A stretch of DNA of 64,000 bases from Azolla caroliniana (Eukaryota > Plantae > Polypodiophyta), in NCBI GenBank assembly GCA_043228905.1, contig JBHGNT010000003.1, forward strand, positions 20,708,001 to 20,772,000. Reading direction: 5' to 3'. A model generated the notes under the pieces. It was not told the DNA's origin, did no database searches, and was given only the letters and a program-made list of their open reading frames with translations. Shown in pieces: positions 1,660 to 44,949 of this stretch; positions within the stretch are counted from its first letter, which is position 1; every line of letters begins with the position of its first letter. The position numbers and the translations under genes were made by a program.

Positions 1660-1960
1660 ATGACGTGGAAAGGCCCGCCATCATCGTCCACACGTGGCTA
1701 AAGAGTTTGGGCTGATCGCAGCCGTCGGATGCCCATCGGACGGCCGACGTCGCTCCGAGGCCTGTGCCCGACCGGCGAAAACACGTGGACTCCACACGAC
1801 TGGTCCATGCCACGTAAGGTATGACGTGGCGCCTCCCTTCCCTCCCTTCCTCCTTGTGGAGAAGCCAAAAAGAGGCCGCCACGTAGGCCGGGCCTGCCAC
1901 GTGTTCGAGGCGAGAGGGGCGACGTGGCGCCACGTCGTCGGCCACGTCGTTCCGACCATA
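1660..1960 (+). promoter_or_regulatory. GC-rich DGAT3 promoter with dense ABRE/G-box cluster
   Basis: ACGTGG/CCACGT cores near 1661, 1691, 1781, 1809, 1822, 1878, 1896, 1921, 1929, 1941; CCGAC (DRE-like) near 1744, 1768, 1952; perfect 18-bp palindrome CGACGTGGCGCCACGTCG at 1920-1937. Confidence 0.8.
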
Positions 1961-2444
1961 AGCCCTCCTCCTCCTCCAGCTCCTCCTCCTTGTGTAAGCT
2001 TCTGCAGGGAAGAAAAGCAGAATCGCCATAGCTCCTGCTGCTTGCCTGCCGTTTTGCTTTTCCTTCTCAAGAAAAGCAGCCTCCATCTCTTGCTTCTACA
2101 CTCGACCTCGCGCTGCAGAGATAAGTGAAATCTTGCCATATATCTAGAAGAGCTTTGGGTAAGCAGAAATCTCCATATCTGTTTTCTTTTTCTTTTTCTC
2201 TGAAAGAGCTTCTGGTATAGAGGAATCACGAACTCTTCAAGACGCTTCCTGGTTGAGGAGACTGTCTCTGATCCTTCCATCGTAACTCCTTATTTTTCTT
2301 CGCCGCAGAGAATTCCTGGTTTCTAGCTCTGCAAGTTTATTTATTTTTCTCAATTCTTCATTCTCTCGCAGTAAAACCAATCGTACTAATTACAATAAGA
2401 TTTTCCATATCTCGCCATATCCGTACTCAGAGCCATACCCCTTT

Positions 2445-4073
2445 ATGGCATCGCTGCAGTTTCCTGCTACTTCTTGTCTCTCTGGCCGTTCTTCTTCTTT
2501 CTCTGATCAGAGCCATATCCTTTTCTACTCCAAATCTTCATCGTCTTCTTTCTTTCCTTACCAATCCAGCGTTCCTCGGTTTCTTAAATCATCATCATCT
2601 GCTTCTTTGCGCCATGGACAACCTCACTTATCCTCGTTTTCTCCAGTCAGAGCTTCTTCTTGTCTGATCTCTGATCCATGTCCTATCAACAATGATCAAG
2701 AAAGTATTCTGCAGGAACTTGCAGAGTTGAAGAACCAGATGAAACAGAAAAAGAAGGAGCTCAAGGCATTAGCGAAGAAGGAAGAGAAGAATAAGAAATC
2801 AGAGAAGAAACTACTGAACAAGAAAGCGAAAGCTAGAGATTGTGAATCATCCTCTTCATCATTGAGCGATGCAGAGTGTTGTGATCAGTCGGTGGATATG
2901 AAGGAGCTAAAGAAAGGATTAGGTTTTGCGGAATCCATGGCAGAAACAGAAGTTCTTTCAGTAGAGGATCCAGAAGGAAGAGATGTTGTAGAAAGGATGG
3001 AAGAGAAAGCTTGCAAAGCAGAGGTAAAAATGATGAAAGAGAAAAGTAAATCAGAGAATAAGAAACTGATGAAAGAGAAGGCTAAGTCAGACAAGAAGAA
3101 ACTAGCGATGCAGAAAATGGAATGTACAAACGATTGTGAATCTTCATCATCAAGCTCATCTTCAGAGTCTAGCGATGATGAAGAGGATTGCCGTGATCAA
3201 ATTCTGGATATGAAGGACTTAAAGTTAGGATTGGTGTTCGCAGAAACCATGACAGAAGCAGAAGAAGTTATTGTTTCTGTAGAATCAATGGAAACTACAA
3301 TTAAAGCTGGGGCAGAACCCTTGCCTTTCTCTATTGAATCTATGGAAATAAGAAAAGCTTTATCTTCCTGTATAACCGAACCCATGGAACCAACAAAAGC
3401 TTCTACCGAATTCATTGAAACAGCTAAAAGTTCCCCTTTCTCCCAAGAAACCATAGGAACGGCAAAACATTCGCTTTCTTGCACAGAATCCATGGAAATG
3501 AAAAATGAGTTCTCTTCCTCCGTCAAATCCATTGATAAAACATTCTCTTCCTGTGTGAATGAATCCATCGGAGCTTCAAAAGCTTCTCTTTCCTGTACTA
3601 CTGCCCAAGAATTCATGGAACATCCAAAAGCTTTCCTTTCCTCTGTGATAGCTGATGAATCCGTGAAGAATTCTTTCCCTTCGTGTAAATCCGTGGGATC
3701 TTCAAAAGCTTCCATCTCCTGTATTGCTGCTGAAGAATCCATGGAATCAGCTAGGTTAACAGGGAAAATCCAAGTTTGTGTTGGAGGTAAGTGTAAGAAA
3801 GCAGGTTCAGAGAAGCTGATGGCTTCTTTGAGAAGCCGTATCCCTGGTGATAGTGGAGTAGAAGCAGTCCCTTGCAAGTGCATGGGGAAATGCGCCATGG
3901 CCATCAACGTCAAGGTTCAGAAATTAGATGAAGAAACGAGGAATCTTACTCAACGCCATAGCTACGTGGGAGTAGATGATGCAGACCTTATTCTCCGTCA
4001 TCATTTCGGTGGTGTTAATGAAATTCCTCCTCCTCGTTTACTTTCTCTGTCATCACCATCACCATCACCATAA
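2445..4073 (+). CDS. DGAT3: DGAT3-like soluble diacylglycerol acyltransferase with C-terminal thioredoxin-like [2Fe-2S] ferredoxin domain and probable plastid transit peptide
   Basis: 542-aa ORF: Ser-rich N-terminus; Lys-rich coil + 'DCESSSSS..ESSD..C..DMK' modules; C-terminal IQVCVGGKCKKAG...CKCMGKC...NVKV typical of DGAT3. No ATG seen in 1981-2444, consistent with a long leader. Confidence 0.88.
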   Translation: MASLQFPATSCLSGRSSSFSDQSHILFYSKSSSSSFFPYQSSVPRFLKSSSSASLRHGQPHLSSFSPVRASSCLISDPCPINNDQESILQELAELKNQMKQKKKELKALAKKEEKNKKSEKKLLNKKAKARDCESSSSSLSDAECCDQSVDMKELKKGLGFAESMAETEVLSVEDPEGRDVVERMEEKACKAEVKMMKEKSKSENKKLMKEKAKSDKKKLAMQKMECTNDCESSSSSSSSESSDDEEDCRDQILDMKDLKLGLVFAETMTEAEEVIVSVESMETTIKAGAEPLPFSIESMEIRKALSSCITEPMEPTKASTEFIETAKSSPFSQETIGTAKHSLSCTESMEMKNEFSSSVKSIDKTFSSCVNESIGASKASLSCTTAQEFMEHPKAFLSSVIADESVKNSFPSCKSVGSSKASISCIAAEESMESARLTGKIQVCVGGKCKKAGSEKLMASLRSRIPGDSGVEAVPCKCMGKCAMAINVKVQKLDEETRNLTQRHSYVGVDDADLILRHHFGGVNEIPPPRLLSLSSPSPSP

Positions 4074-5602
4074 TCCCTGGTTCAGATGACTTGAATTCAA
4101 ACTTGCCGATCAGCTTCGTCACAGAAAAAAGAAACACAGGAGATTAATTTGGTCTTGCTTTCTTCTTCAACCTTCAACAATCCTTTTTTTGCTCTTTAAT
4201 CGTATTCCATCCTTTTTCTTTCTTTCATCCTTTCTGTAGGTTTGCCATGTCCTGTCTCCTTCTCTTTCTTTGTGATATACACTCTTGGCTACCAACATAA
4301 TTTCTGGTCTTCTACTTTATCTTTCTTTCAGATTTGCCATATCCACCATATGTTTTTCATAGTAGAACAGCGTCATAGCTCTTCCTATATAAACTCCCAA
4401 GTATATAATGTATAAGCTCACCGTTCCAATGTAATGCTACTACCTACATCTTTTCTGATCTTGCTTCGCATATAGTTTTCTCTAACGAGTGATTGTGGTA
4501 AGATCATCCTTCTTTAGCTCTCTCTTCTGCCAGTGAATCCTAACTGCAGAAAAATGTTGTGCAGTGATTAATTATTAGACAAATAACATTAGTTTTAAGG
4601 ATGTCTTCTATATAGCTGCAATCTATGCTGCACCTCAAGACAGGACGACTGCATTGTTAACTCTTCTACCAACCATTTACTTGATCATTGCCATTGCTCA
4701 CAATCGAAGATTGCTTCTTTGTTCACAATCGAGGATACACATTGGTGCTTCTTTGTTCGCAATCAATTGTATGATCAAAGAATGATTAGGGTCTCCATGA
4801 GCCAAGTTTGATGGTCTACCAGCAATCACATTGCATTTTGGAACTCTATTAATGAATGTCTCAATTGAGAACATAGATGTAACAAGTTTGTGCCAGTATT
4901 GGGTGGGGTGGGTCGTAGATGTCAGGTAAGCATAGAATGTAATCAAAGGCAAAAAAGCAGTGGAGTTACCTCTCATGCTTAAGGACTCTTGGAGGGTGGA
5001 GATGTCCGGAAAGCATGTTTGAATGTGATCAAAGGCAAAGCACTGCATGGAAGGCATGGTTATATGTGATCAAATGCAAAGCACTGCATTTACCGCCAAT
5101 GCTTCTTATGCGTAAGGACTTGGCAACTTCTTTAGGGTAAAATATGCCTAGTCCACTAGTCTCATTTCTTATACCCCCTACCTCTTGTCTCATGTCAATA
5201 TTAGTGTGAACTAAGCCAAATGGAAGCAATGATTGAGAGGGGCAGACAATGGGATAGGCTCAAATGTGTATTAGTGTGTGTTGCTTCACTATTCAATCCA
5301 AGAATATGGTCTTATTAGTAGGTACAATGTATGTACATAGTATAATATGTGAATAGAGCATCGTGGTATATATGGCGTGTGAAGTGTGAGCCTCCACATT
5401 TCCTTTTTGTCATTATGCATTGGCATTGTGAAAAGGACTCAGATCAAGTGTGTTGCATCCCATCTTTCATACCATTTTTTTCATATCTTGTCTTTTGGAT
5501 ATCTTTGCTTGCTTTCCATGTGCTTCTACGAAGTTGATCCAAGGGGCTTTTCCAAACCTTAAGCATGTGCTCAACAACCCTTCCCATGGCATTGATCTCA
5601 AT

Positions 5603-16052: not shown

Positions 16053-19000
16053 TTTTTTTGAAAAGGGATAGGCCTTGGTATTATAAAATCACAAGAAATA
16101 CAAAAGTTGTGTTGGATAAAGGAGTATGCCAACCGACTCCATTGTGCTCACATCATAGCTGATTTGTTGTGTCTATACAAGAACTACACATATTTGTACA
16201 CCATATCTCCAAGATTTTTATGTCTACTCTTGCCAAACTACAACTGAGCGTGCAATGTAACCTATACCACATAATTTGTAGCAAGAGAGTGTCCATAAAC
16301 AAAGTTAGTAGACATTGTTTCCCAAAATGATGGGAACATTATACATCCATATCATGTGATCTCCATCTTCCCTAAAAATGACCATTGAATCCCACAACCT
16401 TTTAAAGTGCATTTGCTTCATGAAAATGGCATCAACATTGCCTGTAAAACTTTCATACTGACCACATAATGTATGAATAAGTAACAACAAGAATTCAACA
16501 ATTATAATAGAAACATCCTGAGTGGTGTTGTCAAATACTGATGTACGCACGCCTTCCAAATTACCCACATCAGAATAGATGAAATTGTCTTCCAAATAAT
16601 ATCATCCCTAAATTGCAAACTATCACTTATAAAAGGTTGAGCCATTTGTATATGAGGAGGAACTATGTGAAAGGCTTCCACTATATCTCCTCCTTTTCAT
16701 ATAACAACAATTGTCCCTCTAGAATGCCCCACCTAACCACACCCCAAGTAATAACACAATTAGCATGTATCAATATCAACAACCTTAATTCTCTCTGCCA
16801 AACTTGCACAATTTTAGGACAAGACCACAATACATGCTTAATTGATTCCATCATACATCCACAACCAAATCCACACGACGTACTATTTAGTTGTCGTAAC
16901 CAAGCCTGAACCGGTAGTGTATAATGGATCAATAACCAACAAAAAAGGACAATCTTCTTAGGATTCTGCATACTCCATAACCACTTCCAATATTTAGATG
17001 CATCCATTAAAGAGGCCCCATTCGCCAACCACACTTTCATAGCAGATGGAAGATGCAATTTCCTACTTAAGAGCAACTTTCGTCCCAACTTCACAAAAGA
17101 TTGAAAAAATTGAAAAATTTTAGTATGAGACGAAGGATTTGTATGTTTCCAAAGATAATCTGATGAATCCCAATGCAAGTCCAACAACGATTTAAAAAAA
17201 AAAAACCATAGTTGGCAAAATAAGATACTATCATAAGGAGAAGGATCTAAAATCCACTTTTTATCAAATTTACCAATCACTCTCACTAGATGTTGCAATG
17301 TTGTTTGCCAAATTGACGATTCCACATCAGTTTGCCATAATCTTCCTTCCTCAGATACATCAAAATAGTAACGTTCTCCTTGAGACATTCCTTTTGCTCC
17401 TATCATAACACCAACCGGAGCAAAATATCTAAACCAAACATGCACAGAAGAAGGTGACCAATTAGAACGAAAATTCCCTAAAGATAATTGAATTGCATCA
17501 AACATAGGTCTAAAACCCCTACACATGGTAGCATCTAGCTGTGAATTATTAAGATGACAAACATAATTTCCCCAAGAGGCTATCATGGCAACTATACCAT
17601 TATCCAAGTCAACCCACTATAATCACGGTCTACTTCCAAGCAATACACCCCTCTCATTAGAAAAAATAAAATTCCAAATCAAAGGTTGTTGCAATAGTTC
17701 TTCATTCAAAGATGGGCATCTACAAATAAAACAAAACTTAACAACATCCGATGCTTTACAAATGTCAACCATAAAACCATCTATCGGAACATGTATCTGT
17801 CTTGTTTTAAAAATTGACAACAATGCCCATCTTAGAGATGGTTTTCAAAAGCCCCCCGTAGACGGTTTAATATCAACCAATCTGTTTAAAAGAAACTCTG
17901 ACCATATACCTTGAGTTGGCAAGATAGCCCTAACAATTTTTTTTGCCAAAAGAGCCTTACATTGGATGTCTGGGTCTATCGTACGTAAAATTCGTGTTCG
18001 TTTGGCATAATATTCGTTTTCCTACATTGGAAAACGAATGTGAATGTTATTCAAACATTCTTGTGTTTTTTTTTTGTTTTTTTCCCATTTATTTATTTTT
18101 TTCCATTTTTACCTCATAACAAATAGTTAATCCAAAAGTATGGTAATTATCATTCTTTGAGTGTGTTTTTCTTAGGTGAATGATTGAACCATTCACGAAT
18201 GCGAATGCACGTATGGTTCATACTATGTCTGGGTCTACCAACCCTAGACCACCATAAGAAATTTGCGTCGTAAGTGTTGACTAAGCTACCTTCGCACAAG
18301 CATCACTATTACTTCTTCCTATCCAAATAAAGTTTTGAACCAGTCATTGAATTTGCAACAAACAGGATCTAGAGAACAAACATGTAGGTGCAATATACCA
18401 CATAGATGAAAGGAGAACTTGATTAGCTATCATTACTCTGCTTGCTAAAGACAACTCCGTAGTGTCCTAAATCAACAATTTTTTGCTTAGTAATAACATT
18501 AATGGAGCTAACAATCACTCCTTATGCATATTTATACCAACTTGATAGCCCAAGTAATGAACTAAAACTCCTTCTTGAATCCAATGAAAAGACTCGGATG
18601 GTATCCATGATAGCAATGGCCACGTAGAAACCCAAAAACCCACTGATTTACACCAATTAAGTCCCAATTAACTTTTGCACTAGAGGCAACGCAAAATGTT
18701 TCCAATGCAACCAGTGTTTTACAGAAATTACCTTCTTCAGTGTGCATGTATGGTGCAGTATCATCTGCAAACTCCACATCTAAAATCATATTGTTAGAGA
18801 TCGGTGTGACTAGCCCTTGGATCCCAACACCTGCTGAATTAAAATATGCGGAGAATACCTCCGTAACAATAAGAAATAAAAAAGGGGCTAACATACACCC
18901 TTGGCGAACTACTCGTGACATTTGAAATGTTCGTCCTCTACCTCCTACTACTAAGATAGAACTATAAGTTAATTTGTACAAAGCTGCCACTGCAATAATC

Positions 19001-20830
19001 CAAGCTTTTGGAAACCCTAATCTTCTCATTGCCTCTTCTACAAAAGTTCCAATTCACTCTATCATAGGCCATTTCAAAATCTAACAATAAAATTACTAAG
19101 TCCTCTTTCTTGGCCATACCCGAGGAGGATAACTCCCAAAACAAAGCAAAAATATCATAGATACTCCTATCTTGCATGCAACCTGTTTGAGAAGTATGAA
19201 TAATATCAGGCAATAAAGGTTGCAAACGCAACACCAATACCTTAGCATAAAATTTGTAAATTGTATTGAGTAATGTGATTGGCCACCATGCCCTAATGTC
19301 CTCTGAAGCTCCATCACCTTTAGGGATAAAACAAATCAACCCCTCCTTCCATTCCTCTAGCATAGCTCCAAAATAAAATTTTATTTGAAAAGCACTAGTT
19401 AAATCATCAGCTATAATGTCCCAATATTGTAAGAAAACGTCCCTTATTAGTCCATCCTCTCCTGGGTAGACCTCGGAACCCAAAGATTTTAATGCTTGTT
19501 GAACCTTAGAAGAAGAAAAATGGCATAAAAGAGTTTGAACCATTTGATATGTAACACATGGCTTTGTTGCACCAAAAACTATACCCCTCATTGCCAATAC
19601 ATTTTGACTCACCTCATTAGCAGACAACAATTGTTCATAATACCGAGATGTTAACTCTCGCATTTCATCCGGATCCATTGAGAGAGTACCGTCATCCCTC
19701 TTTAATGCACCCATCTGAAACTTACGCGGTCTTGGAGTAACTACATCAAAAAATAATTTGGACATTTTGTCCCCTTTTTGAGACCATTTTGTTGCAAATG
19801 CAAAGTATTTAAAATAAGCAATTTTAGATTGCATAAGAAAAATTGCATCTCTTAACTTCCGTAAGTTGTTTTCAAGATAAATTGAGTTGATATCTCTTTC
19901 TTGCAAGCATTGAATCGAGGCCAACCCTCTTCTTGTATTTGCCAACCGAGAGACAAGAAAATGTTTCTTATCTTTAGCCTGACCTAAAAGTAGTTGCTTA
20001 AGTTGAAATAAAGCCACAAAAACCTTAGATAACTTATCAGGAGCAAAGACACTAGACCAAAGGGAAGCAACACTCTCCATAATGGAATCATCCTTTTGAA
20101 TCCATTTTGGAATCTTTACATGATCATGAAATACAACAAATCGCAATTTCAAAGTCAGTGTGATCTGAAAAGTTTGTACCCAGCACTATCCCTAGAGATC
20201 CACGTAAATCCCAAAATTATTGATTCGCGTGAAACTTGTCAATCCTAGAGATATTGGCATTTGCTACCCGCCTGTTCGACTGAGAAAATTGTAATGACTC
20301 TACCCTTCTTGCAAAATACTGCATAAACCATAAGTCCTACAAGCTAACTTTAAAGCATAAATTTTCCCACTCAGCCAATTCAACATCTGAGATTGTAATT
20401 GTGCCCCCACCCATACAATTAGAAGGGTCTTCAAGCATATTAAAGTCCCCAACAATGCACCAATGATCAATTACAGGGAGATCAGTCCACAATTAGCACC
20501 AAAATTGTGCCCTTCCCCTTGCTGAATTCGGTGCATAAACATTCAAGAAACCAACTTTTTTCTCTAATAGATTTAATACTATAAATTGGGCACAACCGCC
20601 CTGTAAAAAACCCTTGTCTACAATCAAAGAAGCCCATTTTTCAGAACATGCAATAGCAAGCCCCCCTTGCATTCTAGATGGCCCATAAGCCGAAATCCAA
20701 TCATAAAACCACCATCCCTTCTCTAGAGTCAACTTGATTGTGTGCATACCCAAAACAATTGCTTGGTGAACCAAAAAGTGTACAAGTCCAATCACTACGA
20801 CTAATGATTGTTATTGATAATGTCCAACCA
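16053..20830 (-). mobile_element. Decayed, 5'-truncated L1-clade LINE (ORF2: APE endonuclease, RT, zf-RVT)
   Basis: NVYAPN (20493-20795); WPITLLNTIYK and LLLDFEMAYDRVNW (18962-20152); RQGCMLAPFLF and EFADDT (18562-19029); CGFGCGC..ESIKHVLWSCP (16681-17607); short poly(A) at ~16053-16059. Several frameshifts/stops; no TSD found. Confidence 0.9.
17979..18224. mobile_element. 246-bp insertion in the LINE with 13-bp flanking direct repeat
   Basis: ATGTCTGGGTCTA at 17966-17978 and 18225-18237; removal restores GGLGLVDPDIQCKALLAK; degenerate terminal inverted repeats and an internal 11-bp hairpin. Confidence 0.8.
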
Positions 20831-21827: not shown

Positions 21828-22477
21828 TGTCGAGGTATTCCTCGCGGATGCGTGGAATGAGGCGGGACCTCGGGGGTCTTGTACCGAAGAGCAAGAGAGA
21901 AAGGAGAAGGGAAGGGACCCACTACGTGCGAGCGTAGATCCACAGGGACACGGCCCTTCGATACGAAGACGCGAGCGGGGAAACCAACACAGAGAGGCAC
22001 GAAGGTATGTATGTATATATATTAACAGAGACAAACAACAAGAAGCGCGAAGTCGGTTACAACCGAACAGGCCGGCGAACAGATGCCGATGCCTGTTCGC
22101 AAACGCTCAGAAAGAAAAGGGGTAGGTTGGAGGTGCTGCCGGAAGCACTCGGGCATTCCTCAGAGCAACGCGAGCCTCCCGAAAACCTGCACAGAAAGAA
22201 GCTACGGAGTCTTGGAAGAGAGCGAAGCCTTCGGCCGAAAACCCAACAACACTTCGTCCTCTCTATCGTCGATCCCCTTCCTCCTTCTCGTCTCCCTCCT
22301 TTTATAGGCAAGAAAGGAGCCGTTTCCCATTAACTTCCTGCCTACCGAATCTACCTACCTAGGATCTTCTATGTACCTAATTCTCTCTTACGTACAACAT
22401 AAGGCGTACATGCATGAAGAGCCGGTTCCTACGCTACGGTGCACCGATTCCGCTTGTGGACGGTTTTCTTCACGACA
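21828..22477 (-). repeat. 3' LTR of inner Gypsy
   Basis: TGTCG...TTCACGACA on +; adjacent minus-strand PPT GGTTAGGTGGGGGCGGA. Confidence 0.95.
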
Positions 22478-22550
22478 TCCGCCCCCACCTAACCGCGCAT
22501 CCACCGGCATGCACCAAATTGAGTTGGGACGGAGAAAACCGGTCCAACCT

Positions 22551-25500
22551 TCATTCCCCGCCCGTCGGTTCTTCCTCGGTTTCAGATCGTTCGTCGTCGC
22601 GGTCCAGGTTAACCGGATCCGGCTCGTCGTCGTGACGCTTCTTGAACGCTTTGATCCGCTTCCCAGCTACCGGTATCGCCATTCTCGTGCCGTCGAGTTC
22701 CGCCAGATGGTACGTCCCATTGTCGTTGGCGCTTTGGACCACGTAAGGCCCGAACCACCTTCTTGCAAACTTCCGTGTCGCTCGGTGCTGGTTGTCGAGG
22801 CTGCTGTCGTAGACTAGCACCCAGTCGCCTTCCTCGATCTTCTTTGGTCGGAGCCGGTGCGTCCGGTCGAACTGGGCTTTGTTCCTCGTCCTTGCCGCAC
22901 GAAGCTTTCCCGCAGCCTGCTCCACGTCTTCCGGTCTTCTCTCGAGCTGTCGTATGCGCGCCGCCAACAGTTCCTCCCGGCTCATCTCGTTTTTCCAGTC
23001 CATGGTTGCCCATGAGGAGATTGTACGTTCCATCGGCATGATCGGCTTCTACCCAAACATGAGCTTTGCCGGCATGAATCCGGTTACCGAACTGTGCGTG
23101 GTTCGGTCCGCCCACAACGCGTAAGGCAACAGCCGCGGCCAGTTCCCGACTTGACCTCCGCATGCCTGAACTAACGCCTTGACGATCGGTCCGTGTCTGC
23201 GCTCCACCTTCCCATTCGCCTCCGGATTGTACGCAGTGGTAAGCGAGAGCTTGACTCCTAGCCGGTCGAACAACTCCTCAGCCTCTTCGGCGTCCAACTC
23301 CTCGCGGTCAGCCACGATCTTCCCGACGCACCCGTACTGGCATATCACGTCCTCGATCAGGAACCGACATACGGCCGCGGTCGTTTTGTTCTGAAGGGCT
23401 CGGCCTTCCACCTGGTTCGTCAGATCTTCCCGAGCCAGGACCAGATACCGCATCTGTCCTACTCCCATCGGCATCGTCACCAGGTCTACCATCCATTTGA
23501 AGTGGATGGTCGGAGGGTACGTAGGGTGAAGCTCGTCCCAATGTCGGACTATGGAGTGCATCTGACCGCTCTCACAAGTTGTCACGAACCGATGCACGTC
23601 CCGGTACAGTCCCAGCCACCAGTACTTCCCCTTTATCTTCTCGAACGTGGCCCACTTCCCACGGTGTCCAACCCAAGGGCTGTCGTGGTAGGCCGTCAAC
23701 AGCTCCTCCTGTTCTTCCTTCATCGTCACCACCCGGAGCGGGACGTCGTTCCTCTTCTTCGGGTGCTTCCATAAGTATCCGTCCCGGAGAAAGAATCAGT
23801 ATGCTTTCTTCCGGATCCGGTTGGCCTCGTCCCTCGTCCATGACGCATCCGGCGTCATTGTCCTCAAAAACCCACCGATCTGTAGCCACTCGCCGTCGTA
23901 CTTGCTCTCGTCGAAGCTGTTAAGTGCCGGAGTGCTCGTCCCATCGGTTGTCACGTACGCCGCCTCGAAGAAGTCCACGCCGACTTCTTCGTCCTCCAAA
24001 ACCATGCCGCCCTCGTCATCAAACCTCGCCCTCGAAAGCATGTCGGCCATGGCGTTGTCCTTTCCGAAAATGTGTCGTATTTCCGGGTCCAGGGACTTGA
24101 TGTACGCTATCCACCTGAGCATCGCCAGGTCCGGTGTCGCGCATCCGGAAACCATGCCGAGAATGGGCAGGCAATCCGTCTCGATAATCACTTCTGTCCC
24201 GATCAGGTAGTCTTTGTCGACCTTTACTGCCGAAACGATACCCCAGAGTTCGCGTTTAACCTGGGCGTACCCTCGCTGTCGCTCACTGAGGACCTTCCCG
24301 CCGAATCCGATCGGGAACCGAATGCCGTCCTCGTCTTCTTGGTTGACGACCCATCCGATCCCGGTCGGACTCGTATCCACCGTTATGTAAACCGGGGTAC
24401 CCTTCTCGTAGACAGCCTTCCGGAGCGCCGGTGCTGCCGCAAGAGCTTCCTTCAGCTTCCGGACCGACTCCGTGTGCTCGTCTCGCCACCCGAATTTTCG
24501 CCCCTTCTTCAGCAACCCGTATAGCGGTTCCGCAACGTGGGTGTAATGCGGGATCCATATGTGGTAGAATGCGCATGCCCCTAGGAACCTCCGAACTTCC
24601 GTAACCGAGCTACAGTTGGTCTTCATCGCGGAGATGGCTTCTACCTTTGCCGGAGACGGCTTCCAGCCATATGGTCCACATAGGTGTCCGACCACCAGGA
24701 TTTCTGATTGCCCGAAGGCCGATTTCTCCCCGGAGAAGGTGAGCCTCGCATCCTCTAGCCTTTGTAGCACCTTCTCGCAGTCGTCGATGTGTGTTGCCAC
24801 GAATCGCCGGCATCCGTCCGGCCCGAGTGTCGCGTCCTTCTCTTCCACCGGGCACCCCTTGATCGGGATGTCATCTAGAAATGGCATGGTGATGTCCGGG
24901 ATGCAGTCCCTCAGTACCTTGTTCATTGCATTCACCATGTGGGCCACCGAGTTGGTCCCTCCTTGCGGCAGGGTACACATTCGCACTAGGCCGAGGGGAG
25001 TTCGCATCGTCGTAATGTCTCTACTCTCCACGGCTAGCTGGAACTGGTCGTACCCCGAGTACAGATCACCGACCGAGTAAATCGACCTTCCGGCAAAGGC
25101 CTCCGCGAACTCGTCTATGGTCGGTCCGATTCCTGCGTTCCGAATGGTCACTCTGTTGACCGGCTGCAGGTCTTGAATGAAGCGCAATGTTCCGTTTTTC
25201 TTTGGTACGGTAAACCATCAGTTCGAGTATGGGGCACTCGACGGTTCGAGAATGCCCATATCGACTTTTTGCCTCAATAGCTCCATCAACTTCGAGATGT
25301 GAGCTCTCGGTACTAGAATCGGCTTGAGATTCCACGACACATGCAGTACCGTGAATATCACCATCGGCTCCACGATTGTCGGGTCTACGCACATGATCTC
25401 TTCCGGTGAGAATGCGAAGGCTTTCCCGTGCCTTCCGAGCATTCTCCGAAACCGGTCTTCCTCCGCCGGCAGTAAGAACCCGCCCCCACCGATTTTGAGC

Positions 25501-26054
25501 TCCCAGAGCGTCTCGTCGGTGAAGGTGTGTCCTATGCAGACCGGATCTCGTAAGCTGGGGTCCGACGCAACCCCTCTGATTCGGGACTCGCTGCCCTCCG
25601 GTAAGTGTGCCGCGACTGGCCTTACCTTCCGGTCCACAGTCTTGTACTTCGTGCTAACTCAGGCCGTCCGACCCGACCGGAGCCCCTGACTGAAGTTCGC
25701 GATGACTTCGTACATCTCTTCGGAACATACCGGTATCGTCCGGTCTTCATTACGGTTTTCTCCGGCTACCTTCCTCAGCATCCCCAAGGTGTCGTCGAAG
25801 GAGACCGCCTCCACAGCTCCGCTGATTTCCTCGTCCGGGCCGAGAACTCCGCACGCTCGAAGTCGTACTTCCGCCCTTGCTTTTTCTCGGCCAACGATGC
25901 CGACTATCATACACCCTCCGTTGTCGGAGAAGCAAAAATTTCCACCTACCGTACAGGGTTTCTTCGGTTTCGGTTCTATCGTACAGTTGTGGGGTCTTTC
26001 CTGAGTGTTCGAACTGTCTCGGCCCCACGCCTTGGCAGCCCTCTCTAAAAATCC
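22551..26054 (-). pseudogene. pol (RT-RNaseH-integrase) of inner Gypsy, one frame with four premature stops
   Basis: ORFs 25659-25910, 25218-25637, 23796-25187, 23049-23732, 22551-23039 are all in one frame, separated by TGA/TAG explainable as C>T changes; integrase YNPEANGKVER and WFGPY. Confidence 0.92.
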
Positions 26055-27573
26055 TCCCGGTTCTCGCCACCGAGGGATTCGCGGTTTCGCTCGTGGTTCA
26101 GTCGCACCGTCAGAAATTGGACCGAATGGCGCCCGTCCTGGCTTTTGACCCTCGCGTAGGCCGAACCGTTGTCCAGCACCTTGGTCTCCATTCGCGCCGC
26201 CGTGATGTATGGTTCCCCTAATATGACCGGGTGCGAGGACGTCTCCTGTACGAAGAAGTGCTGGTCAATCTCGACGTCGCCGATCTTGACTCGCACGTTC
26301 GGGCAGGCCCCATGCAGTTCCTCGGTGGCGCGCGTCGCCGCCCGTATCTTCCACCCGTGCTTGGTGTTGATCGGCCACTTTCCCTTCTTATAGAAGTCCA
26401 TGGACATCAGGTTTATTTCCGAACCGTGGTCCACCAGTGCCACCACCGGTTCCTGAACATCTCCGATCTTTACCGGGGTCTCCGTGGTCGCTCGGGCCCA
26501 GTGCGGCCTTGAATAGTGGCTCTCCGCCCACTCATCTTCCAGCGCCATGTCGTCGATGTGCGTCGTCCGCACCTCCACCGGTCTTTCCGGTTCCGTCTCC
26601 GTCGACAGCCTCTTCTGTTTCACCAGGTCCACAATGGAGTCGTGGAACTCCTTCTGGGCGATCCCTAGCACCTCCCGCAACGACAGCTCCACTTTGCTGT
26701 CGAGGATCCGTTCTTCTAGGACCTTTCGTAGGTCTGTGGTCCTTTCTATTTTTGTCCCCAGTCGGTATCCACCCTTCCTGGGGTTATCTTGCGCGCTGGA
26801 CCCACCGGCTTCGTTCCGTCGTTGCCCGAATCGGGTCTCGTATCGCTGTGAGGGCTCGGCCGCTCCGGCTTTCCCCACTCGTTTGTCTTCTACCAGAGCC
26901 TCATAGTTCCGGCAGGCGGCTTCTACGAAGCCCGTCTTCTCCTTGACCGGGTCGCTCCACCCGGTTATTTCCCGGACCCGTCTCTCAGCGCGGTTCACTT
27001 CATCTTTCCTCAGTCGTGCGCCGGCGAGGCCTTCCAGCATTGCCGACCAGGATCCGGCTTTGCTCTCCTTTCGGGCCTCGCTGCCCCCGACCCGAATACC
27101 AGCCGATGCCGAGTAGTGGACGGTCTCCACGTGTTGGGCCGCTGCCTCTTCCATCAGTCTCTTCATACCTCCTTGCTCGTCGTTTCGGTTTAGGGCCCTT
27201 CTGGTGTCACTGGCGTGCACCCGGCCTTCCCACAGGTACACCACCCGGTTCCTCAATGCCTCTTCGAAATTGCCGTAGTCCTTTCGAATGTGGCCGACCT
27301 CGTCGCACCACATGCACCTGTTACCTGCTGCCGGCCGTCGGTCACGAGCCGGTTCGCCGCCTTCCCTTCGAGTCTGGGCGATCTGGAGATCCTTTATCGC
27401 CCGCGTCAACTCCTCCAGCGCTGGTCCTCCGGACGAGTCATTGACCATGCCGGTCGAAGCCGAACCGGTTTCGAGCCACTCCCGGGTCTCTACCCTTCGC
27501 CCTTGCGGTGCCGGTTCAAGCCTCCTTGCAGTGACAGAGCCCGCACCGGCCGCTCCATTGTCAGCCCATTCTC

Positions 27574-30500
27574 TGTTGGGATTACGGTCCCTCCGGATGG
27601 GATGGTCAGATGTCCGGGAATTGGGAATGAAGACCCGAATGAGTAGTACCCGGTATCAGAGCCGGATGATGAAGACCCGGTTTCGGATCCGGATGATGAA
27701 GACCCCGACTACGGAGCCGGATGACGAATGTACCCGGAGAGAGATCCGGATGCGGGGACATATTTGTGAATATGTTTGCCAAGGGCCCTCTAGGCTATAC
27801 TTGTAAATAGCCCGAAAGTCATATGTGTATAAATATGACTTAGGGCAAACAGTTTTGTTGTTGTTGCTCATTTTTCTGTTTTCCACTTAGAGGGAGCGAA
27901 GTGAGAGCAGCCGAGAGAGAGAGTGAGAGAGAGAGAGAAAGGAAGAGGTCGACGCCTCTGTGTAATACCGCCGCCTGTGGCGAGGACAGCGAGCTCAAGG
28001 TCGTCGCCTTGCAGCTCGCCATTGTACATTCACTGCGTATAGTGATAGTTGGAGTCTTGCACTCCCGTGGTTTTTCCCGTCTAGGGTTTTCCACGCTAAA
28101 CCCTGTGCATTCGAGTCTCTCTCTGTGTTTTCGATTTACTACTGCATTGATTCGCGTTTCCTCGGTTGTGGCCGAGAGGTGAAAGTTTTTTTGAAAGCGT
28201 AAATCTCTAACAATCTGGTATCAGAGCGACTGCAGTGCAGAAAATGGAAGGCGGCAGCAGCGGGCAGCCGGGGATGATAGTGCTGAATGCGCAGAACTAC
28301 GCCGACTGGAAGATAAAGATGGAGGATTTGCTCATTGTTCGGGACCTGTATGAACCGATCGACAGGTCGGAAATACCCAAGGGGGTACTTGAGACGGAAT
28401 GGAGGCTTCTGAACCGGAAAGCCGTTGCAACCATTCGGCAATACGTCGACGTGAGCGTTCTACAACATGTGGCGAACGACACCAACGCATATGAGATGTG
28501 GCAGAAGCTGTCGGGCCTCTACGAGAGGAAGAATGCGTTGAACAGGACCTCCCTGATGAGGAAGATAGTGAACCTCAAGTACCGGGACGGCGAGAGTATG
28601 GTGGAACACGTAAGCACGTTCATGGGATTCGTGAACCAGCTTGCGGCGATCAAGTTCCCGTTGGAGGATGCAATGCAAGCCATCATCCTGATGTGTACAT
28701 TGCCGGCAAGTTGGGAGAACTTGGTGGTGACTCTCAGCACCTCCTGCACCGAAGATAACTTGTCCCTACAAACGGTAAAGACAAGCATTTTGAACGAAGA
28801 AGCGCGTCGGAGAGATAAAGAACCGGCCTCCGATCCGAAGATGCTGCTTGCCGAATCGGATCGGGGAAGACAACGGAACCGGAGTCCGCAAAGACGGGAG
28901 AAGTCGGGGACCCGGTCGCAGTCAAGAGGAAGGCCCACATGCTTCCACTGTGGGAAGCCGGGGCACTTCCGAAAGAATTGTCGGCATTACCGAAAAGACA
29001 ACGGAGCCGACGACACCGATTCGAAGAAGTCTTCGGAACGGAACGGAGCTTACCGGGGAGCCACGGACCGGAATGGTTCGGATCGGCGAGGGCAGGACCG
29101 GAAAGGAACGACGGCACTCGCGGCAAGTGAAGAGGAGATCATGCTCATCACCGAAGAAGGTGAACTAAACATTGCCGGCGATGAGACTACCTGGGTGGTT
29201 GATTCCGGAGCGTCGTTCCACCTGACCCCGGAAAGAAGATACTTCTCATCCTACACAGCCGGTGAGCATGGCTGTGTTCGGATGGGAAATGAAGGTATGT
29301 GCCGGATTGCCGGCATAGGAGACGTGTGGTTGACAACCTCGACCGGATGCAAAATGTTGCTGAAGGATGTCTGACACGTTCCGGAGGTTCGATTGAACCT
29401 GATTTCGGCCGGGAGGCTAGATGATGAAGGCTACACAGGTAGCATCCGGAACTGCGTAATGAAGTTCAGCAAGGGGAGCCTGATAGTGGCTCGGGCCCGG
29501 AAAGTCAACACACTGTACCTTATGAATGCCTGGTTGTGTCCGGAGGAGTTGAACGTGGCAGCCGACACTGCCGGTGAGCTGTGGCACAAGAGACTGTGCC
29601 ACATGAGTGAGAAGGGGATGAAGAGGCTTGCAGAAGACAACCTTATTCCAGTGAAGCATGTGCACCTGGAGAAGTGCACCGATTGCCTGGCCGGTAAGCA
29701 GAACCGAACCTCCTTCCACTCAAGGCCACCGACGAGACGTAGCGCACCATTGGAGTTGGTGCACACTGACGTGTGTCAAGTAGAAACGAAGTCACGTGGC
29801 GGAGCCCAGTACTTCGTGACATTCATTGATGACCACAGCCGGAAGCTGTGGACGGCACCACTGAAGACAAAGGACCAAGTGTTGTACGTCTTCAAAGAAC
29901 TCCACGCGAGAGTGGAAAGGGAATCCGGCAAGAAGTTGAAAGCGATACGAGCGGATAACGGAGGGGAATACCGGGGGCAGTTCGAGGAGTACTGTCGCTC
30001 GAAGGGAATCCGGCTCGAGTTTACTGTGCCGAAGACGCCGGAACTAAACGGACTGGCCGAGAGGATGAACCGGACCATAATGGAGAGGGTCCGGAGTATG
30101 CTGGCGCATGCGAAATTACCCAAGGGGTTTTGGGCTGAGGCAATGTCGACGGCGACATACGTGATAAACAGATCACCCTCAGTACCTTTGGACGGAGACA
30201 CGCCGCAGAGACTGTGGACCGGTAGGGAAGTATCCTACCGGCATCTGAAGGTGTTCGGGTGTCTCGCATATGTGCATGTGGCAAAGGACCGGAGAGGAAA
30301 GCTAGATCCAAAGACCCGGCCATGCATATTCCTCGGTTACGGCGATGACGAGTTCGGCTACCGAGTATGGGACCCGGTCGACAAAAAGATATTCCGGAGT
30401 CGTGATATCATCTTCATGGAGGACAAGACACTCGCCGACTGGGAGTCGGAGAAGAAGATAAAGAGCTCCAAGTCGACCGGTGAGGATCAACTCTACGAGG

Positions 30501-32966
30501 AGCAGTCCCGACCGGCAAGGGACCGGTTAGCACTCGAGGATCCGGCCGAAGACGGTGAAGAAACAGAACCGGCCGAGGAAGATGAAACTGATACCGGAAC
30601 CGGCCCCGATCCCGAAATGGATTCGGATGAAGAGGAAACGGAGGAGCCGGTTACCGAAGCTCCGGAACAGAGATATCCTCTAAGAGAGAGAAGGCCCCCC
30701 CGGAGATTTCCGGAACCAGAGCACGTGCTGCTAACCGACGAGGGGGAGCCGGAGAGTTTTGAAGAAGCAAAGCTTGACACCCATAGCCACAGGTGGTTAA
30801 GTGCCATGCAGGAGGAGATGGATTCCCTGCATGAGAACCACACATATGAACTTGTGGAGTTGCCGAAAGGAAAGCGGGCACTTCGAAACAAGTGGGTGTT
30901 CAAGCTGAAACCGGGAGATGCCGGAAACCCCCCGAGATACAAAGCCAGGATCGTGGTGAAGGGGTTCCAGCAGAAGAAGGGCGTTGACTTCGACGAGATA
31001 TTTGCCCCGGTAGTGAAGATGACCTCCATCCGGACGGTGCTGAGCATAGCGGCAAGCATGGACCTCGAGGTAGAACAGATGGACGTGAAGACGACATTCC
31101 TTCACGGTGACCTCGAAGAAGAGATCTACATGCAGCAACCGGAAGGATTCGAGAAGAAAGGGAAGGAGCACCTGGTATGCCGGTTGAAGAAGAGCCTTTA
31201 CGGATTGAAGCAGGCTCCCCGGCAATGGTACCGGAAGTTCGACTCTTTCATGACCAACGAAGGGTACCACAAAACGCAGTCCGATCACTGCGTGTTTGTG
31301 AAGAAGTTCGAAGGAGGAGACTTTCTAATACTCCTCCTGTACATGGACGACATGTTGATCGTCGGACGGGACCAGGTCAAGATACGGATGCTGAAGAAAG
31401 CGCTTCACCGAACCTTCTCAATGAAGGACCTGGGTCCGGCGAGGCAAATACTAGGGATGCACATCATCCGGGACCAGAAGAAGAAGCAGTTGTGGCTGTC
31501 ACAGGAGAAGTACGTGACAAAGGTGCTTCACCGGTTCAACATGTCGGAAGCAAGACCGGTCGGGTCAACCCTCCCGGCAAACTGCAAACTGTCCAGCAAG
31601 CAAAGCCCCAAGACAAAGGCTGAGAAGGAGGACATGATGAAAGTACCATATGCCTCTGCCATCGGAAGCTTGATGTACGCAATGGTGTGTACAAGACCGG
31701 ACATAGGATATGCAGTCGGAGTGGTGAGCCGGTACATGAGCAATCCCGGCAAAGAGCACTGGAACGCGGCCAAGTGGATACTCCGATACTTGAAGGGCAC
31801 GGCAAACGTGTGCCTCCGATTCGGCTCCGGTAAGCCCGAACTCGACGACTTTACCGATTCGGATATGTCGGCTGACGCAGATACCAGCCGGTCCACATCA
31901 GGGTATGTGATGACGTATGCAGGGGGAGCTGTTTCGTGGCAGTCGAGGCTGCAGAAGACGGTTGCGTTGTCAACCACGGAGGCGGAGTACATGGCGGCTG
32001 TTGAAGCCGGCAAGGAAATAATATGGATGAAGGACTTCATTAGAGAGCTCGGTATCCGGCAGGAGGAGTACCGACTCTACTGCGACAGTCAGAGTGCCAT
32101 CCACCTTGCGAAGAATGCGGCCTATCACTCCCGGACGAAGCACATCCAGAGAAGATATCACTGGATCCGGGAAAGGATAGAAGACCAGGAGTTCGTGCTG
32201 ACGAAGATCCACACGGACGAGAACGGGTCAGATATGCTGACCAAAGTGCTCACACCCGACAAGCTGGAAGCGTGCCGGAAGAGGGTCGGACTGGAAAGAC
32301 ATCCCATGCCGAAGTGAAGGGGGAGCTTGTTGGGATTACGGTCCCTCCGGATGGGATGGTCAGATGTCCGGGAATCGGGAATGAAGACCCGAATGAGGAG
32401 TACCCGGTATCAGAGCCGGATGATGAAGACCCGGTTTCGGATCCGGATGATGAAGACCCCGGCTACGGAGCCGGATGACGAATGTACCCGGAGAGAGATC
32501 CGGATGCGGGGACATATTTGTGAATATGTTTGCCAAGGGCCCTCTAGGCTATACTTGTAAATAGCCCGAAAGTCATATGTGTATAAATATGACTTAGGGC
32601 AAACAGTTTTGTTGTTGTTGCTCATTTTTCTGTTTTCCACTTAGAGGGAGCGAAGTGAGAGCAGCCGAGAGAGAGAGTGAGAGAGAGAGAGAAAGGAAGA
32701 GGTCGACGCCTCTGTGTAATACCGCCGCCTGTGGCGAGGACAGCGAGCTCAAGGTCGTCGCCTTGCAGCTCGCCATTGTACATTCACTGCGTATAGTGAT
32801 AGTTGGAGTCTTGCACTCCCGTGGTTTTTCCCGTCTAGGGTTTTCCACGCTAAACCCTGTGCATTCGAGTCTCTCTCTGTGTTTTCGATTTACTACTGCA
32901 TTGATTCGCGTTTCCTCGGTTGTGGCCGAGAGGTGAAAGTTTTTTTGAAAGCGTAAATCTCTAACA
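27574..32966 (+). mobile_element. Young Ty1/Copia retrotransposon (Tto1/Tnt1-like) nested in inner Gypsy gag
   Basis: 639-bp LTRs 27574-28212 and 32328-32966 (3 mismatches seen), TG...CA ends; TSD TTCTC at 27569-27573 and 32967-32971; PBS TGGTATCAGAGC 28216-28227; PPT GAAGGGGGAG before 3' LTR. Confidence 0.97.
28244..32317 (+). pseudogene. Copia gag-pol with a single in-frame nonsense codon
   Basis: CFHCGKPGHFRKNC, WVVDSGAS, WHKRLCH..CTDC, integrase core, RT LKKSLYGLKQAPRQW / YMDDML, RNase H. TGA at 29372-29374 replaces the conserved Arg of KDVRHVP; both ORFs share a frame. Confidence 0.95.
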
Positions 32967-33591
32967 TTCTCGCCGTTTGTCGAAACGGCCACAGACTCTC
33001 TTAACCGCAACCCAGTCGGTCGTCAGTCCGTCTTCGGTTTCCAGCAAGGAGCCGACTTGATCCCGGTCCCGCTCGTCCACCGACTTGACGAACAGTAGGA
33101 CCCGGCTCGTATCCAGAACGGTTCGGTCAAGCGCCGAAAGGCGCGCAAAGCGTTCCTCAAACTCCCGGAGGAGTGCCGACGCGTTTCTTCCCTTGCCGGG
33201 GGACTCCACCCATCCCATGAAGTCCCGTTTCGAAAGCCGGAGCGCGTCGTCCAGCCCGTATTTTTCTAGGAGTCGGCCTTCGAACTCCTCCCAGGTACGG
33301 CTCTCCTCCCGTACCTCGAGCACCTCCACATGGATGCTCGGCATCGCCACTCGAGGGAACCCGACAAGACGCCTCTCTTCCGGAATGTCCCGCATCAGCA
33401 TTTCTGCCCCGTAGGACGCCAAATACTTCGTAGCATCCTTTCCGCTGAACCGGCCGATCGTACCGACGACCACCTCAATGGCTCTGTCGAGGGCGCCGGT
33501 GCCCTCGCGTGCGCTCAATATCTGATCCACGGCCGAAGCCATGGCCTCCGCCAGATCCGACCCCTTCATCTTCTGCTCTTCTGCCGCCTCC

Positions 33592-33609
33592 TTCACGTCG
33601 GGTTCACCA
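33592..33609 (-). other. Primer-binding site complementary to tRNA-Trp
   Basis: + strand TTCACGTCGGGTTCACCA equals the 3' 18 nt of plant cytosolic tRNA-Trp(CCA) as I recall it; 3 nt from the 5' LTR. Confidence 0.88.
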
Positions 33610-33612
33610 AGA

Positions 33613-34262
33613 TGTCGAGGTACTCCTCGCGGATGTGTGGAATGAGGCGGGACCTCGGGGGTCTTGTACCGAAGAGCAAGAGAGAAAGGAGAAGGGAAGG
33701 GACCCACTACGTGCGAGCGTAGATCCACAGGGACACGGCCCTTCGATACGAAGACGCGAGCGGGGAAACCAACACAGAGAGGCACGAAGGTATGTATGTA
33801 TATATATTAACAGAGACAAACAACAAGAAGCGCGAAGTCGGTTACAACCGAACAGGCCGGCGAACAGATGCCGATGCCTGTTCGCAAACGCTCAGAAAGA
33901 AAAGGGGTAGGTTGGAGGTGCTGCCGGAAGCACTCGGGCATTCCTCAGAGCAGCGCGAGCCTCCCGAAAACCTGCACAGAAAGAAGCTACGGAGTCTTGG
34001 AAGAGAGCGAAGCCTTCGGCCGAAAACCCGACAACACTTCGTCCTCTCTATCGTTGATCCCCTTCCTCCTTCTCGTCTCCCTCCTTTTATAGGCAAGAAA
34101 GGAGTCGTTTCCCATTAACTTCCTGCCTACCGAATCTACCTACGTAGGATCTTCTATGTACCTAATTCTCTCTTACGTACAACATAAGGCGTACGTGCAT
34201 GAAGAGCCGGTTCCTACGCTCCGGTGCACCGATTCCGCTTGTGGACGGTTTTCTTCACGACA
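33613..34262 (-). repeat. 5' LTR of inner Gypsy
   Basis: Matches 21828-22477. Confidence 0.95.
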
Positions 34263-40910: not shown

Positions 40911-41365
40911 TGTTACTGGCATGACCATATAATATCCTATGGTGAGAATTTACCGTAGTATTCTATACACGTGGATAAGTGTGAGGGTTAAACGAGAGTG
41001 TAAAGACGGGGAGGATTACTTTTAATCCTCAGGATTGAGACAACCCATTAGCCCAAGTGTGAACTTGCCTGAGGGCCTTGGGTATCGCTATAAATAAGAG
41101 GCCTAACTACCCTCATTTCATCATCTGGTTGACTACGTCGAGACTCTATCTTGTGGTGGGTCAACTCTTGTAGCGAGTGCGCCAACACCATGTATGACTC
41201 GACGCCACGACGGTGGTATGGGACGCCGATCGAGGCTCGAGTCCGTCTCGATCCCTTTGCTCGGGGGTGGTCGGGTGGATCGACACCCTTCTTTCTCTCT
41301 CTCCTTTCTATCTAGATCTATCTTTTATCCTTATTTTATGCTTACATTAGTTCATGTCTCTAATA
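40911..41365 (+). repeat. Chromovirus 3' LTR
   Basis: Matches 21028-21482; followed by TSD GACCT. Confidence 0.95.
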
Positions 41366-44850: not shown

Positions 44851-44898
44851 GGGTGTGTGCTTTTGGGCGAAGAGAAACAGAGACAGTCAGAGACAGAG

Positions 44899-44917
44899 AT
44901 GGCGTCTCGCGACGATG

Positions 44918-44949
<32 letters not shown>

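What the first reader, a model, noticed from the sequence alone, without database searches (positions are those of the whole stretch)
1950..4352. Sense-strand (G)CCATA motif clustered after AG dinucleotides in both DGAT3 UTRs
Seen: CCATA at 1956, 2026, 2136, 2173, 2405, 2415, 2433, 2513 (8 in ~570 nt, under 1 expected for a random 5-mer), plus GCCATGTCC 4244, GCCATATCC 4336 and CCATA 4346. Many follow an AG closely: CAG-AGCCATACCC (2430), CAG-AGCCATATCC (2510), polyY-TAG-GTTTGCCATGTCC (4239), polyY-CAG-ATTTGCCATATCC (4331). The leader also has GTAAGC donors (1994, 2159), a TACTAAT branch site (2384) and acceptors at 2308/2371/2430. Inference: an RNA cis-element (YCAY-type, as read by Nova-like KH proteins) controlling splicing/stability of an Fe-S protein mRNA, or a YY1-like CCAT DNA element acting with the ABREs.
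Basis: partly seen in the sequence, partly recalled or inferred. Interest (0 to 1): 0.7.

Follow-up and report, generated by a model that had tools for sequence, protein, structure and literature searches.

The report
Repeated UTR word in fern DGAT3
A short word (GCCATA) really is repeated in the untranslated ends of a fern's iron-sulfur lipid-enzyme gene and is kept in one close relative, but assembled transcripts show no splicing there and other plants' copies lack it; it is likely a lineage-limited protein-binding signal on the mRNA, with neutral build-up nearly as likely.

Summary
The motif cluster is real; the splicing story is not supported. All coordinates check out, but one of the eight 5' sites lies in the coding sequence (Ser-His-Ile of a conserved protein motif) and one lies upstream of the assembled transcripts, leaving six in a 437-nt leader (0.22 expected; 0 of 1,022 repeat-free genomic windows hold any 5-mer that enriched). 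The gene is a single-copy, intronless fern DGAT3. Contigs from seven runs cross the proposed donors and acceptors unspliced. A close relative keeps 6 of 6 G-preceded UTR sites (45% of background 6-mers survive); a second copy alters 2 of 6. Twenty other DGAT3 loci, 8 iron genes and 25 AP2/ERF genes lack the cluster. No site fits plant YY1's CCATnTT, and other YCAY words are not enriched. New: the last leader copy is the exact complement of the start codon context and is predicted to form a hairpin over it in both species; the leader has no ATG, which alone can explain the strand bias. Best reading: binding-site cluster read on the mRNA (0.4); neutral build-up 0.35. No earlier scan note covered this.

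The parts
1690..1950 (.). Promoter with ten ACGT (G-box/ABRE-like) cores; no GCCATA on either strand
   Evidence: 9 of 10 cores intact in relative L086 against 48% of background 4-mers; one GCCAT at 1677, no ATGGC or TATGG in 1600-2007
1956..1960 (+). CCATA upstream of the transcript contigs; not kept in the relative (TGATA there)
2008..2444 (+). Long pyrimidine-rich 5' leader without any ATG, unspliced in assembled contigs; start near 2008 is a weak hint
   Evidence: contigs start at 2008 (X2) and 2014 (X13) while DNA contig L086 goes on; ATG 0 against 3.8 expected, 5 of 600 shuffles
2025..2030 (+). GCCATA copy 1, inside a 43-nt block identical in L086
2135..2140 (+). GCCATA copy 2; kept in L086, changed to GCCGTA in the second copy of run X2 and in X5
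2159..2308 (+). Intron-like stretch (GTAAGC donor, branch-like CGTAAC, pyrimidine tract, CAG), signals kept in L086, not spliced in any contig seen
2173..2177 (+). CCATA copy 3 (T before it); kept in L086
2405..2409 (+). CCATA copy 4; CTATA in L086, X13, X5 and the second copy of X2, so probably a recent gain here
2414..2419 (+). GCCATA copy 5; kept in L086
2430..2453 (+). GCCATA copy 6 (2432-2437) and the start context TATGGC (2444-2449): exact complements, predicted hairpin over the AUG
   Evidence: -8.1 kcal/mol, pairing probability 0.99; L086 -7.5 and 0.92 despite a 4-nt deletion in the loop; such a 6-nt anti-start within 25 nt is in 0 of 33 control genes and 0 of 14 orthologues
2445..4073 (+). 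Intronless DGAT3 ORF, 542 aa, with N-terminal FSDQSHILFY motif, poly-Lys and poly-Ser tracts, internal ESM-type repeats and the C-terminal four-cysteine motif
   Evidence: single copy in the genome
2512..2520 (+). Coding copy: AGC CAT ATC = Ser-His-Ile of the conserved F-x-D-x-[GS]-H-x-x-[YF]-Y motif
   Evidence: motif in 105 of 134 proteins; codons vary freely in other plants
4220..4252 (+). 3' trailer: pyrimidine tract, TAG, then GCCATG; GCCATG kept in L086
4312..4350 (+). 3' trailer: pyrimidine tract, CAG, GCCATATCC, then CCATA 4346; GCCATA kept in L086, G changed to A in the second copy; 4346 absent from both relatives
   Evidence: 72% like the 4224-4252 unit over 29 nt

Best explanation
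The six leader and two trailer copies of (G)CCAUA(UC) lie in a fern DGAT3 transcript that is unspliced in every contig seen, and they likely form a lineage-limited cluster of binding sites for one RNA-binding protein that would tune the output of this mRNA. Shown: the cluster, its longer consensus (about AGAUYUGCCAUAUCY), its partial retention in one relative, the lack of splice joints, the ATG-free leader. Predicted by folding: the copy 7 nt before the AUG pairs with the start codon, while three other leader copies are mostly unpaired. Inferred: a protein that loads on the unpaired copies would also compete with that hairpin, changing translation or stability, and may shield the strong unused splice acceptors that three copies follow. 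The binding protein and the stimulus are not identified.
For: Outlier status against real genome sequence (0 of 1,022 repeat-free windows; no cluster of 5 or more GCCATATC-like sites in 800 kb). Flanks share more than the 5-mer: G before in 7 of 11, T then C after in 8 of 11 each, pyrimidine next in 11 of 11. 6 of 6 G-preceded UTR sites intact in L086 against 45% of 6-mers (about p 0.008); L086 also has 6 CCATA in its leader through one new copy. Copies sit in both transcribed ends and not in the G-box promoter. Leader sites 2173, 2405, 2415 and coding site 2513 are 70-86% unpaired against 50% overall. Start-codon hairpin kept in both species and absent from 47 comparison starts. 3 of 6 strong pyrimidine-tract acceptors are followed by CCAT within 10 nt. 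Rodriguez-Celma 2013 (PMC3719017, table passage) and Grillet 2023 (PMC12807408, passages) list Arabidopsis DGAT3 as iron-deficiency induced, so the gene is a regulated one.
Against: Absent from 20 other distinct DGAT3 loci (7 CCATA in 3,739 nt upstream of 14 located starts, at most 2 per locus; 4 in 7,058 nt downstream); none of these appears to be a fern. Not in 8 iron-related genes (one GCCAT[AG] in 4 kb; ferritin L090 has four CCATA 246-448 nt upstream, none after G) or 25 AP2/ERF genes (13 sense against 12 antisense in 12.5 kb). A second gene copy changes 2 of the 6 G-preceded sites, no better than its roughly 90% background (both difference lists were cut). Counting all 9 non-coding CCATA, 6 survive in L086 against 51% expected. 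The hairpin is weak (-8 kcal/mol) and a paired AUG is also predicted for 4 of 33 controls and 4 of 14 orthologues. No Rfam match. No binding or expression data.
Confidence: 0.4

Rival explanations
1. Neutral build-up: short local duplications in a slippage-prone gene, one codon-fixed copy, selection against upstream AUG (which removes CCATG and every reverse-strand copy) and a few recent point gains produced the cluster, and the scan picked it because it is a tail event.
For: Three of the counted sites (1956, 2405, 4346) are missing from relatives; 2513 is codon-fixed; copies come in look-alike pairs (4224-4252 and 4316-4344, 72%; 2491-2520 and 4315-4344, 70%); the ORF itself is expanded by internal repeats; 5-mer clusters are common in this genome and 1 of 30 control upstream regions has one as extreme; no other gene found with it; second copy loses 2 of 6.
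Against: 0 of 1,022 repeat-free windows match it; 6 of 6 G-preceded sites intact in L086; copies are dispersed over 430 nt with unrelated spacers; leader is unique in the genome, with no transposon source found.
Confidence: 0.35
2. A DNA element: a zinc-finger factor of the YY1 type binds the copies downstream of the transcription start and works with the upstream G-boxes; the start codon context is a reverse-strand copy, and the hairpin is a by-product of that inverted pair.
For: Human YY1 sites prefer positions downstream of the start site (PMC11269187, passages); AtYY1 binds a CCAT core and acts in ABA signalling (PMC10146089, PMC5346550, passages); the promoter has ten ACGT cores; the 12-15 nt consensus suits a multi-finger protein (inference); strand bias in the leader follows from AUG avoidance; an LTR family in this genome also carries 5-8 CCATA on one strand downstream of a TATA-like word.
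Against: 0 of 11 sites fit CCATnTT; 6 UTR sites read CCATnTC; copies reach 430 nt past the start and into the 3' trailer; none in the promoter on either strand; no general enrichment in other leaders; the LTR copies were selected by a pattern search and are partly tandem subrepeats.
Confidence: 0.18
3. Conditional splicing control: a leader intron (2159-2308 or -2371), or an intron from the coding donor at 3787 to the trailer acceptors (4239, 4331) that would drop three of the four cluster cysteines, is normally retained and spliced only under a stimulus, with CCAU copies as the switch.
For: Donor 2159, acceptors 2308, 2371, 4239, 4331 and donor 3787 look canonical and are kept in L086; contigs drop rare isoforms.
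Against: No such joint in 7 runs; the two strongest leader acceptors are not followed by the motif; TACTAAT not conserved; the reading frame after the trailer acceptors is not kept in L086 (8-nt deletion); 16 of 21 other codon strings at the 3787 position lack GTAAG; an ATG-free leader fits retention.
Confidence: 0.07

Closest known systems
Plant DGAT3 (Arabidopsis At1g48300; PMC6250708, passages read)
   Same: Four-cysteine thioredoxin-like ferredoxin motif, poly-Lys and poly-Ser tracts, N-terminal His motif; G-box-rich upstream region as in several angiosperm loci.
   Different: 542 aa through internal repeats, long 437-nt ATG-free leader with the GCCATA cluster; other plants' loci lack the cluster.
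Nova-type YCAY clusters read by KH proteins (PMC11261784, passages read)
   Same: Several short CCAU words in pyrimidine-rich, partly unpaired RNA, some next to splice acceptors.
   Different: Only CCAU is enriched, not UCAU, UCAC or CCAC; the consensus is longer; no alternative exon seen.
YY1 / AtYY1 sites (CCATnTT; PMC10146089 and PMC11269187, passages read)
   Same: CCAT core with G before it; position downstream of the transcription start; ABA-type promoter context.
   Different: No site has the final TT (most read CCATATC); many copies over 430 nt and in the 3' trailer.
Animal iron-responsive elements bound by IRP1/2 (described in PMC12807408, passage)
   Same: Only by analogy: repeated UTR elements at both ends of an iron-related mRNA and a hairpin near the start codon.
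   Different: No Rfam IRE or other family match; no IRE-type loop (consensus recalled); not found in the two ferritin genes of this genome.

Membership tests
DGAT3 | C-X4-C-X27-34-C-X3-C motif | tested here: met
   C445-X4-C450-X28-C479-X3-C483; definition from PMC6250708
DGAT3 | Homology to named DGAT3 proteins and N-terminal His motif | tested here: met
   38% over 91 aa to Escallonia DGAT3; FSDQSHILFY motif shared with 105 of 134 proteins
DGAT3 | Binds a [2Fe-2S] cluster and makes triacylglycerol | not testable with these tools
   Only weak hits to NuoE-type Fe-S proteins (E 0.12-0.17); no Pfam match over cut-off
Nova-type YCAY cluster | Enrichment of YCAY words as a class | tested here: not met
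   Leader CCAT 8, TCAT 1, TCAC 1, CCAC 0; L086 8, 2, 0, 2
Nova-type YCAY cluster | Flanks a regulated exon or intron | tested here: not met
   No joints at the proposed sites in contigs of 7 runs; rare isoforms cannot be excluded
Nova-type YCAY cluster | Bound by a KH protein | not testable with these tools
   Needs pull-down or CLIP
YY1 binding site | CCATnTT core | tested here: not met
   0 of 11 sites; motif from PMC10146089
YY1 binding site | Position just downstream of the transcription start | tested here: inconclusive
   First copy about 18 nt after the first contig base, others up to 430 nt on; true start not mapped
YY1 binding site | YY1 homologue present and binding | not tested
   The genome was not searched for YY1; binding needs an experiment
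Iron-responsive element (IRE) | Match to a curated RNA family | tested here: not met
   0 Rfam matches at E up to 1 in 1800-4700
Iron-regulon cis-element | Shared by other iron genes | tested here: not met
   0 of 8 genes (2 ferritin, CGLD27, NAS, 4 VIT1-like) have a GCCATA cluster; NEET not located; OPT3, BTS, NRAMP, IRT not searched
Spliceosomal 5' UTR intron | GT donor, branch point, pyrimidine tract, AG | tested here: met
   2159-2308, kept in L086
Spliceosomal 5' UTR intron | Removed from transcripts | tested here: not met
   Contigs bridge both ends unspliced (X1 2058-3395, X2 2008-2226 and 2198-2436, X13 2121-2800)

The most novel reading that the evidence does not exclude
The mRNA carries a set of anti-start elements: each GCCAUA is the complement of the gene's own UAUGGC start context, the nearest one clamps the AUG in a hairpin, and an iron- or stress-controlled protein that binds single-stranded CCAUA opens it. 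That would be an IRE-like translational switch on a plant Fe-S protein mRNA, invented in a fern lineage.
Probability: 0.06. Interest if true: 0.75.

Novelty: new member of a known kind. Interest (0 to 1): 0.3.

Why it matters
If functional, it is an undescribed UTR motif controlling a poorly understood Fe-S protein that is iron-regulated in Arabidopsis, and it gives a cheap reporter test for post-transcriptional iron or stress control in a seed-free plant. I found no description: searches for GCCATA with motif and plants (0 papers), Azolla with DGAT3 (0 papers), and GCCAT with iron, UTR and plant (32 papers, 25 listed, none on this by title or abstract start). Its reach is limited: one gene, two close species, no shared regulon found.

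Tried and rejected
Genome pattern searches for co-enriched genes returned mainly repeats: triple CCATA 550 matches against 1,014 for the reversed control; the trailer 14-mer 101 against 43, with 18 of the 30 loci read belonging to one repeat family and one a cysteine-protease coding match; paired 8-mers 839 against 656. Transposon origin of the leader: no other genomic copy; local alignments to four LTR copies that also carry CCATA beat shuffles on one strand only (0-4 of 100) but are short, low-complexity and not collinear, so rejected. Nucleotide-level constraint on the coding copy: rejected, codons vary. A U12-type donor (ATATCCTT, consensus recalled) at 2515: rejected, the codons are specific to this lineage. 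A small ORF from the trailer GCCATG and the 71-aa trailer frame: not kept in L086. Antisense ORFs over the leader: no support sought or found. NEET could not be located and the start of a second CGLD27-like locus and of one VIT1-like gene was not found. Five of 53 fetched DGAT3 loci were dropped for lack of the cysteine motif and near-duplicates were merged. Earlier scan notes held nothing on this gene or motif. Whether start-codon hairpins in plant iron mRNAs are in print was not searched. No supplements were read.
Full report
Setting. The window lies in a 523-Mb plant genome. The ORF 2445-4073 (542 aa) has as best named hits proteins of Adiantum and Ceratopteris, matches Escallonia DGAT3 at 38% over 91 aa and carries C445-X4-C450-X28-C479-X3-C483, the DGAT3 motif given by Ayme et al. 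(PMC6250708, passages). It is single-copy. Arabidopsis DGAT3 is induced by iron deficiency (PMC3719017, table passage; PMC12807408, passages).

Observation. All coordinates are right. Eight CCATA lie on the + strand in 1950-2520 against a shuffle mean of 0.33 (0 of 5,000). Two do not belong to a UTR. Site 2513 is AGC CAT ATC, the Ser-His-Ile of a motif found in 105 of 134 proteins, whose codons vary in other plants (GGG CAT, GGT CAC, AGT CAC, AGC CAC). Site 1956 lies upstream of the contigs. Six remain in the leader 2008-2444 (0.22 expected, 0 of 600 shuffles); the trailer has two (0.31 expected, 19 of 600). Shuffles flatter the result: in 800 kb of the same genome there are 7 one-strand clusters of six or more CCATA, and control 5-mers behave alike. 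With a local-composition model, 11 of 1,757 windows hold some 5-mer as enriched, all overlapping tandem repeats, and 0 of 1,022 repeat-free windows do. The leader is therefore a true outlier, though a genome holds several hundred thousand such windows. The shared word is longer than five letters, roughly AGATYTGCCATATCY (consensus drawn from these same sites).

Transcript. Contigs of seven runs were laid (X1, X2, X3, X19; X2, X4, X5, X13). Their RNA status is the tool's guess, and contigs cannot show starts or rare forms. They cover 2008 to about 4425 deeply, nothing in 1500-1995, and bridge the proposed donors (2159, 3787) and acceptors (2308, 2371, 2430, 2510, 4239, 4331) without a joint. 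The only joints listed are one at 4999-5104, a replaced segment in X13 that matches insertions in the relative, and a go-back in X4. The leader has no ATG in either species (5 and 7 of 600 shuffles), as expected if it is translated unspliced. This also weakens the strand argument: the reverse orientation of the motif would create ATGG.

Relatives. L086, the locus of P0001 (86% identical protein), aligns at 84-85% in both UTRs. It keeps all six G-preceded UTR sites against 45% of background 6-mers, keeps 2173, lacks 1956, 2405 and 4346, and has one extra CCATA. Of all nine non-coding CCATA, six survive, close to the 51% background. A second, roughly 90% identical copy in runs X2, X3 and X19 (a homeolog or allele, inferred) changes 2138, 2406, 4336 and 4346 and breaks TACTAAT (27 and 55 rows were not shown). 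Of 53 DGAT3 loci from metagenome contigs, 5 were dropped and the rest merged into 21 distinct ones; the 20 besides L086, apparently seed plants and two moss-like types (inferred), show 7 CCATA in 3,739 nt upstream of 14 located starts and 4 in 7,058 nt downstream (9 of the 14 upstream stretches are under 300 nt). No more distant fern DNA was available, which is the main gap.

Other genes of this genome. No cluster upstream of two ferritins, CGLD27, NAS or four VIT1-like genes (ferritin L090 has four CCATA without G, 246-448 nt upstream, in a duplicated segment), nor of 25 AP2/ERF genes (13 sense, 12 antisense, at most 2 per gene). In 800 kb there is no cluster of five or more GCCATATC-like sites and one of four. 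Pattern searches returned repeats. A small regulon could be missed by samples of this size.

Named readings. Nova/KH proteins bind YCAY (PMC11261784, passage), but only CCAT is enriched here. AtYY1 binds CCATnTT (PMC10146089, passage); none of 11 sites fits, although human YY1 favours positions downstream of the start (PMC11269187, passages) and the promoter holds ten ACGT cores, nine kept in L086. Rfam has no match.

New anatomy. GCCATA at 2432-2437 is the exact complement of TATGGC at 2444-2449. Folding gives a hairpin over the AUG (-8.1 kcal/mol, pairing 0.99), kept in L086 although four loop bases are deleted (-7.5, 0.92). A perfect 6-nt anti-start within 25 nt occurs in 0 of 33 control genes and 0 of 14 orthologues, but a paired AUG of some kind is predicted in 4 of 33 and 4 of 14. 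Three other leader copies are mostly unpaired; 2026 and 2136 are not. Three of six strong acceptors are followed by CCAT, but not the two best ones in the leader.

Verdict. Shown: a real, lineage-limited cluster in a transcript that is unspliced in all contigs seen. Inferred: a cluster of sites for one RNA-binding protein that sets translation or stability, perhaps through the start hairpin (0.4). Rivals: neutral build-up (0.35), a YY1-type DNA element (0.18), conditional splicing (0.07). A homotypic UTR cluster is a known kind of element; this motif was not found in print. Interest 0.3: testable, but one gene, two close species and no identified reader.

Noticed in passing
L030:620-1862, L176, L179, L186 (G000 C1 and C2): An LTR family (L030 is a roughly 1.24-kb solo LTR with TG...CA ends and a 4-bp duplication) carries 5-8 CCATA on one strand, downstream of a TATA-like word where one was found, partly as tandem GCCATATC plus telo-box (AAACCCTAA) units.
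   Followed up: partly
L038, L043, L048, L052, L055, L064 upstream regions: Angiosperm DGAT3 promoters (Populus-like and legume-like loci) share a block like AACGGTCACG(C/A)GCCCGCCA next to G-boxes; a possible conserved promoter element, not seen intact in the fern.
   Followed up: no
window 2728-3750: The DGAT3 ORF is expanded to 542 aa (298-416 aa in named fern hits) by a duplicated Lys/Ser block and about eleven ESM-type repeats.
   Followed up: partly
window 3784-3792: A perfect splice donor (GAG|GTAAGT) lies inside the first cysteine pair of the Fe-S motif; unused in the contigs seen; GTAAG also occurs there in L086, L036 and L048.
   Followed up: partly
window 2499-2528 and homologues: The motif F-x-D-x-[GS]-H-x-x-[YF]-Y is kept from moss-like loci to angiosperms within an otherwise variable transit-peptide-like N-terminus; its role is unsettled.
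   Followed up: partly
proteins P0006, P0008-P0013, P0015: Ceratopteris has a run of at least eight DGAT3-like genes with neighbouring locus tags, whereas this genome has one copy.
   Followed up: no
window 21900-34120: GC-rich Ty3/gypsy-type element on the minus strand with a copia-type element nested in it (long ORFs 28211-32317).
   Followed up: no
window 16680-20190 and 37270-40960: LINE-type reverse transcriptase remnants (minus strand) and a broken gypsy-type element (plus strand).
   Followed up: no
window 44830-47000 and 51300-62570: Exons of a FYVE-type zinc-finger gene (plus) and of a dynein heavy chain (minus), both named from recalled sequence features.
   Followed up: no
window 4999-5104: One low-depth contig of run X2 skips 104 nt with AG..CT ends, possibly a tandem-repeat artefact downstream of the gene.
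   Followed up: no
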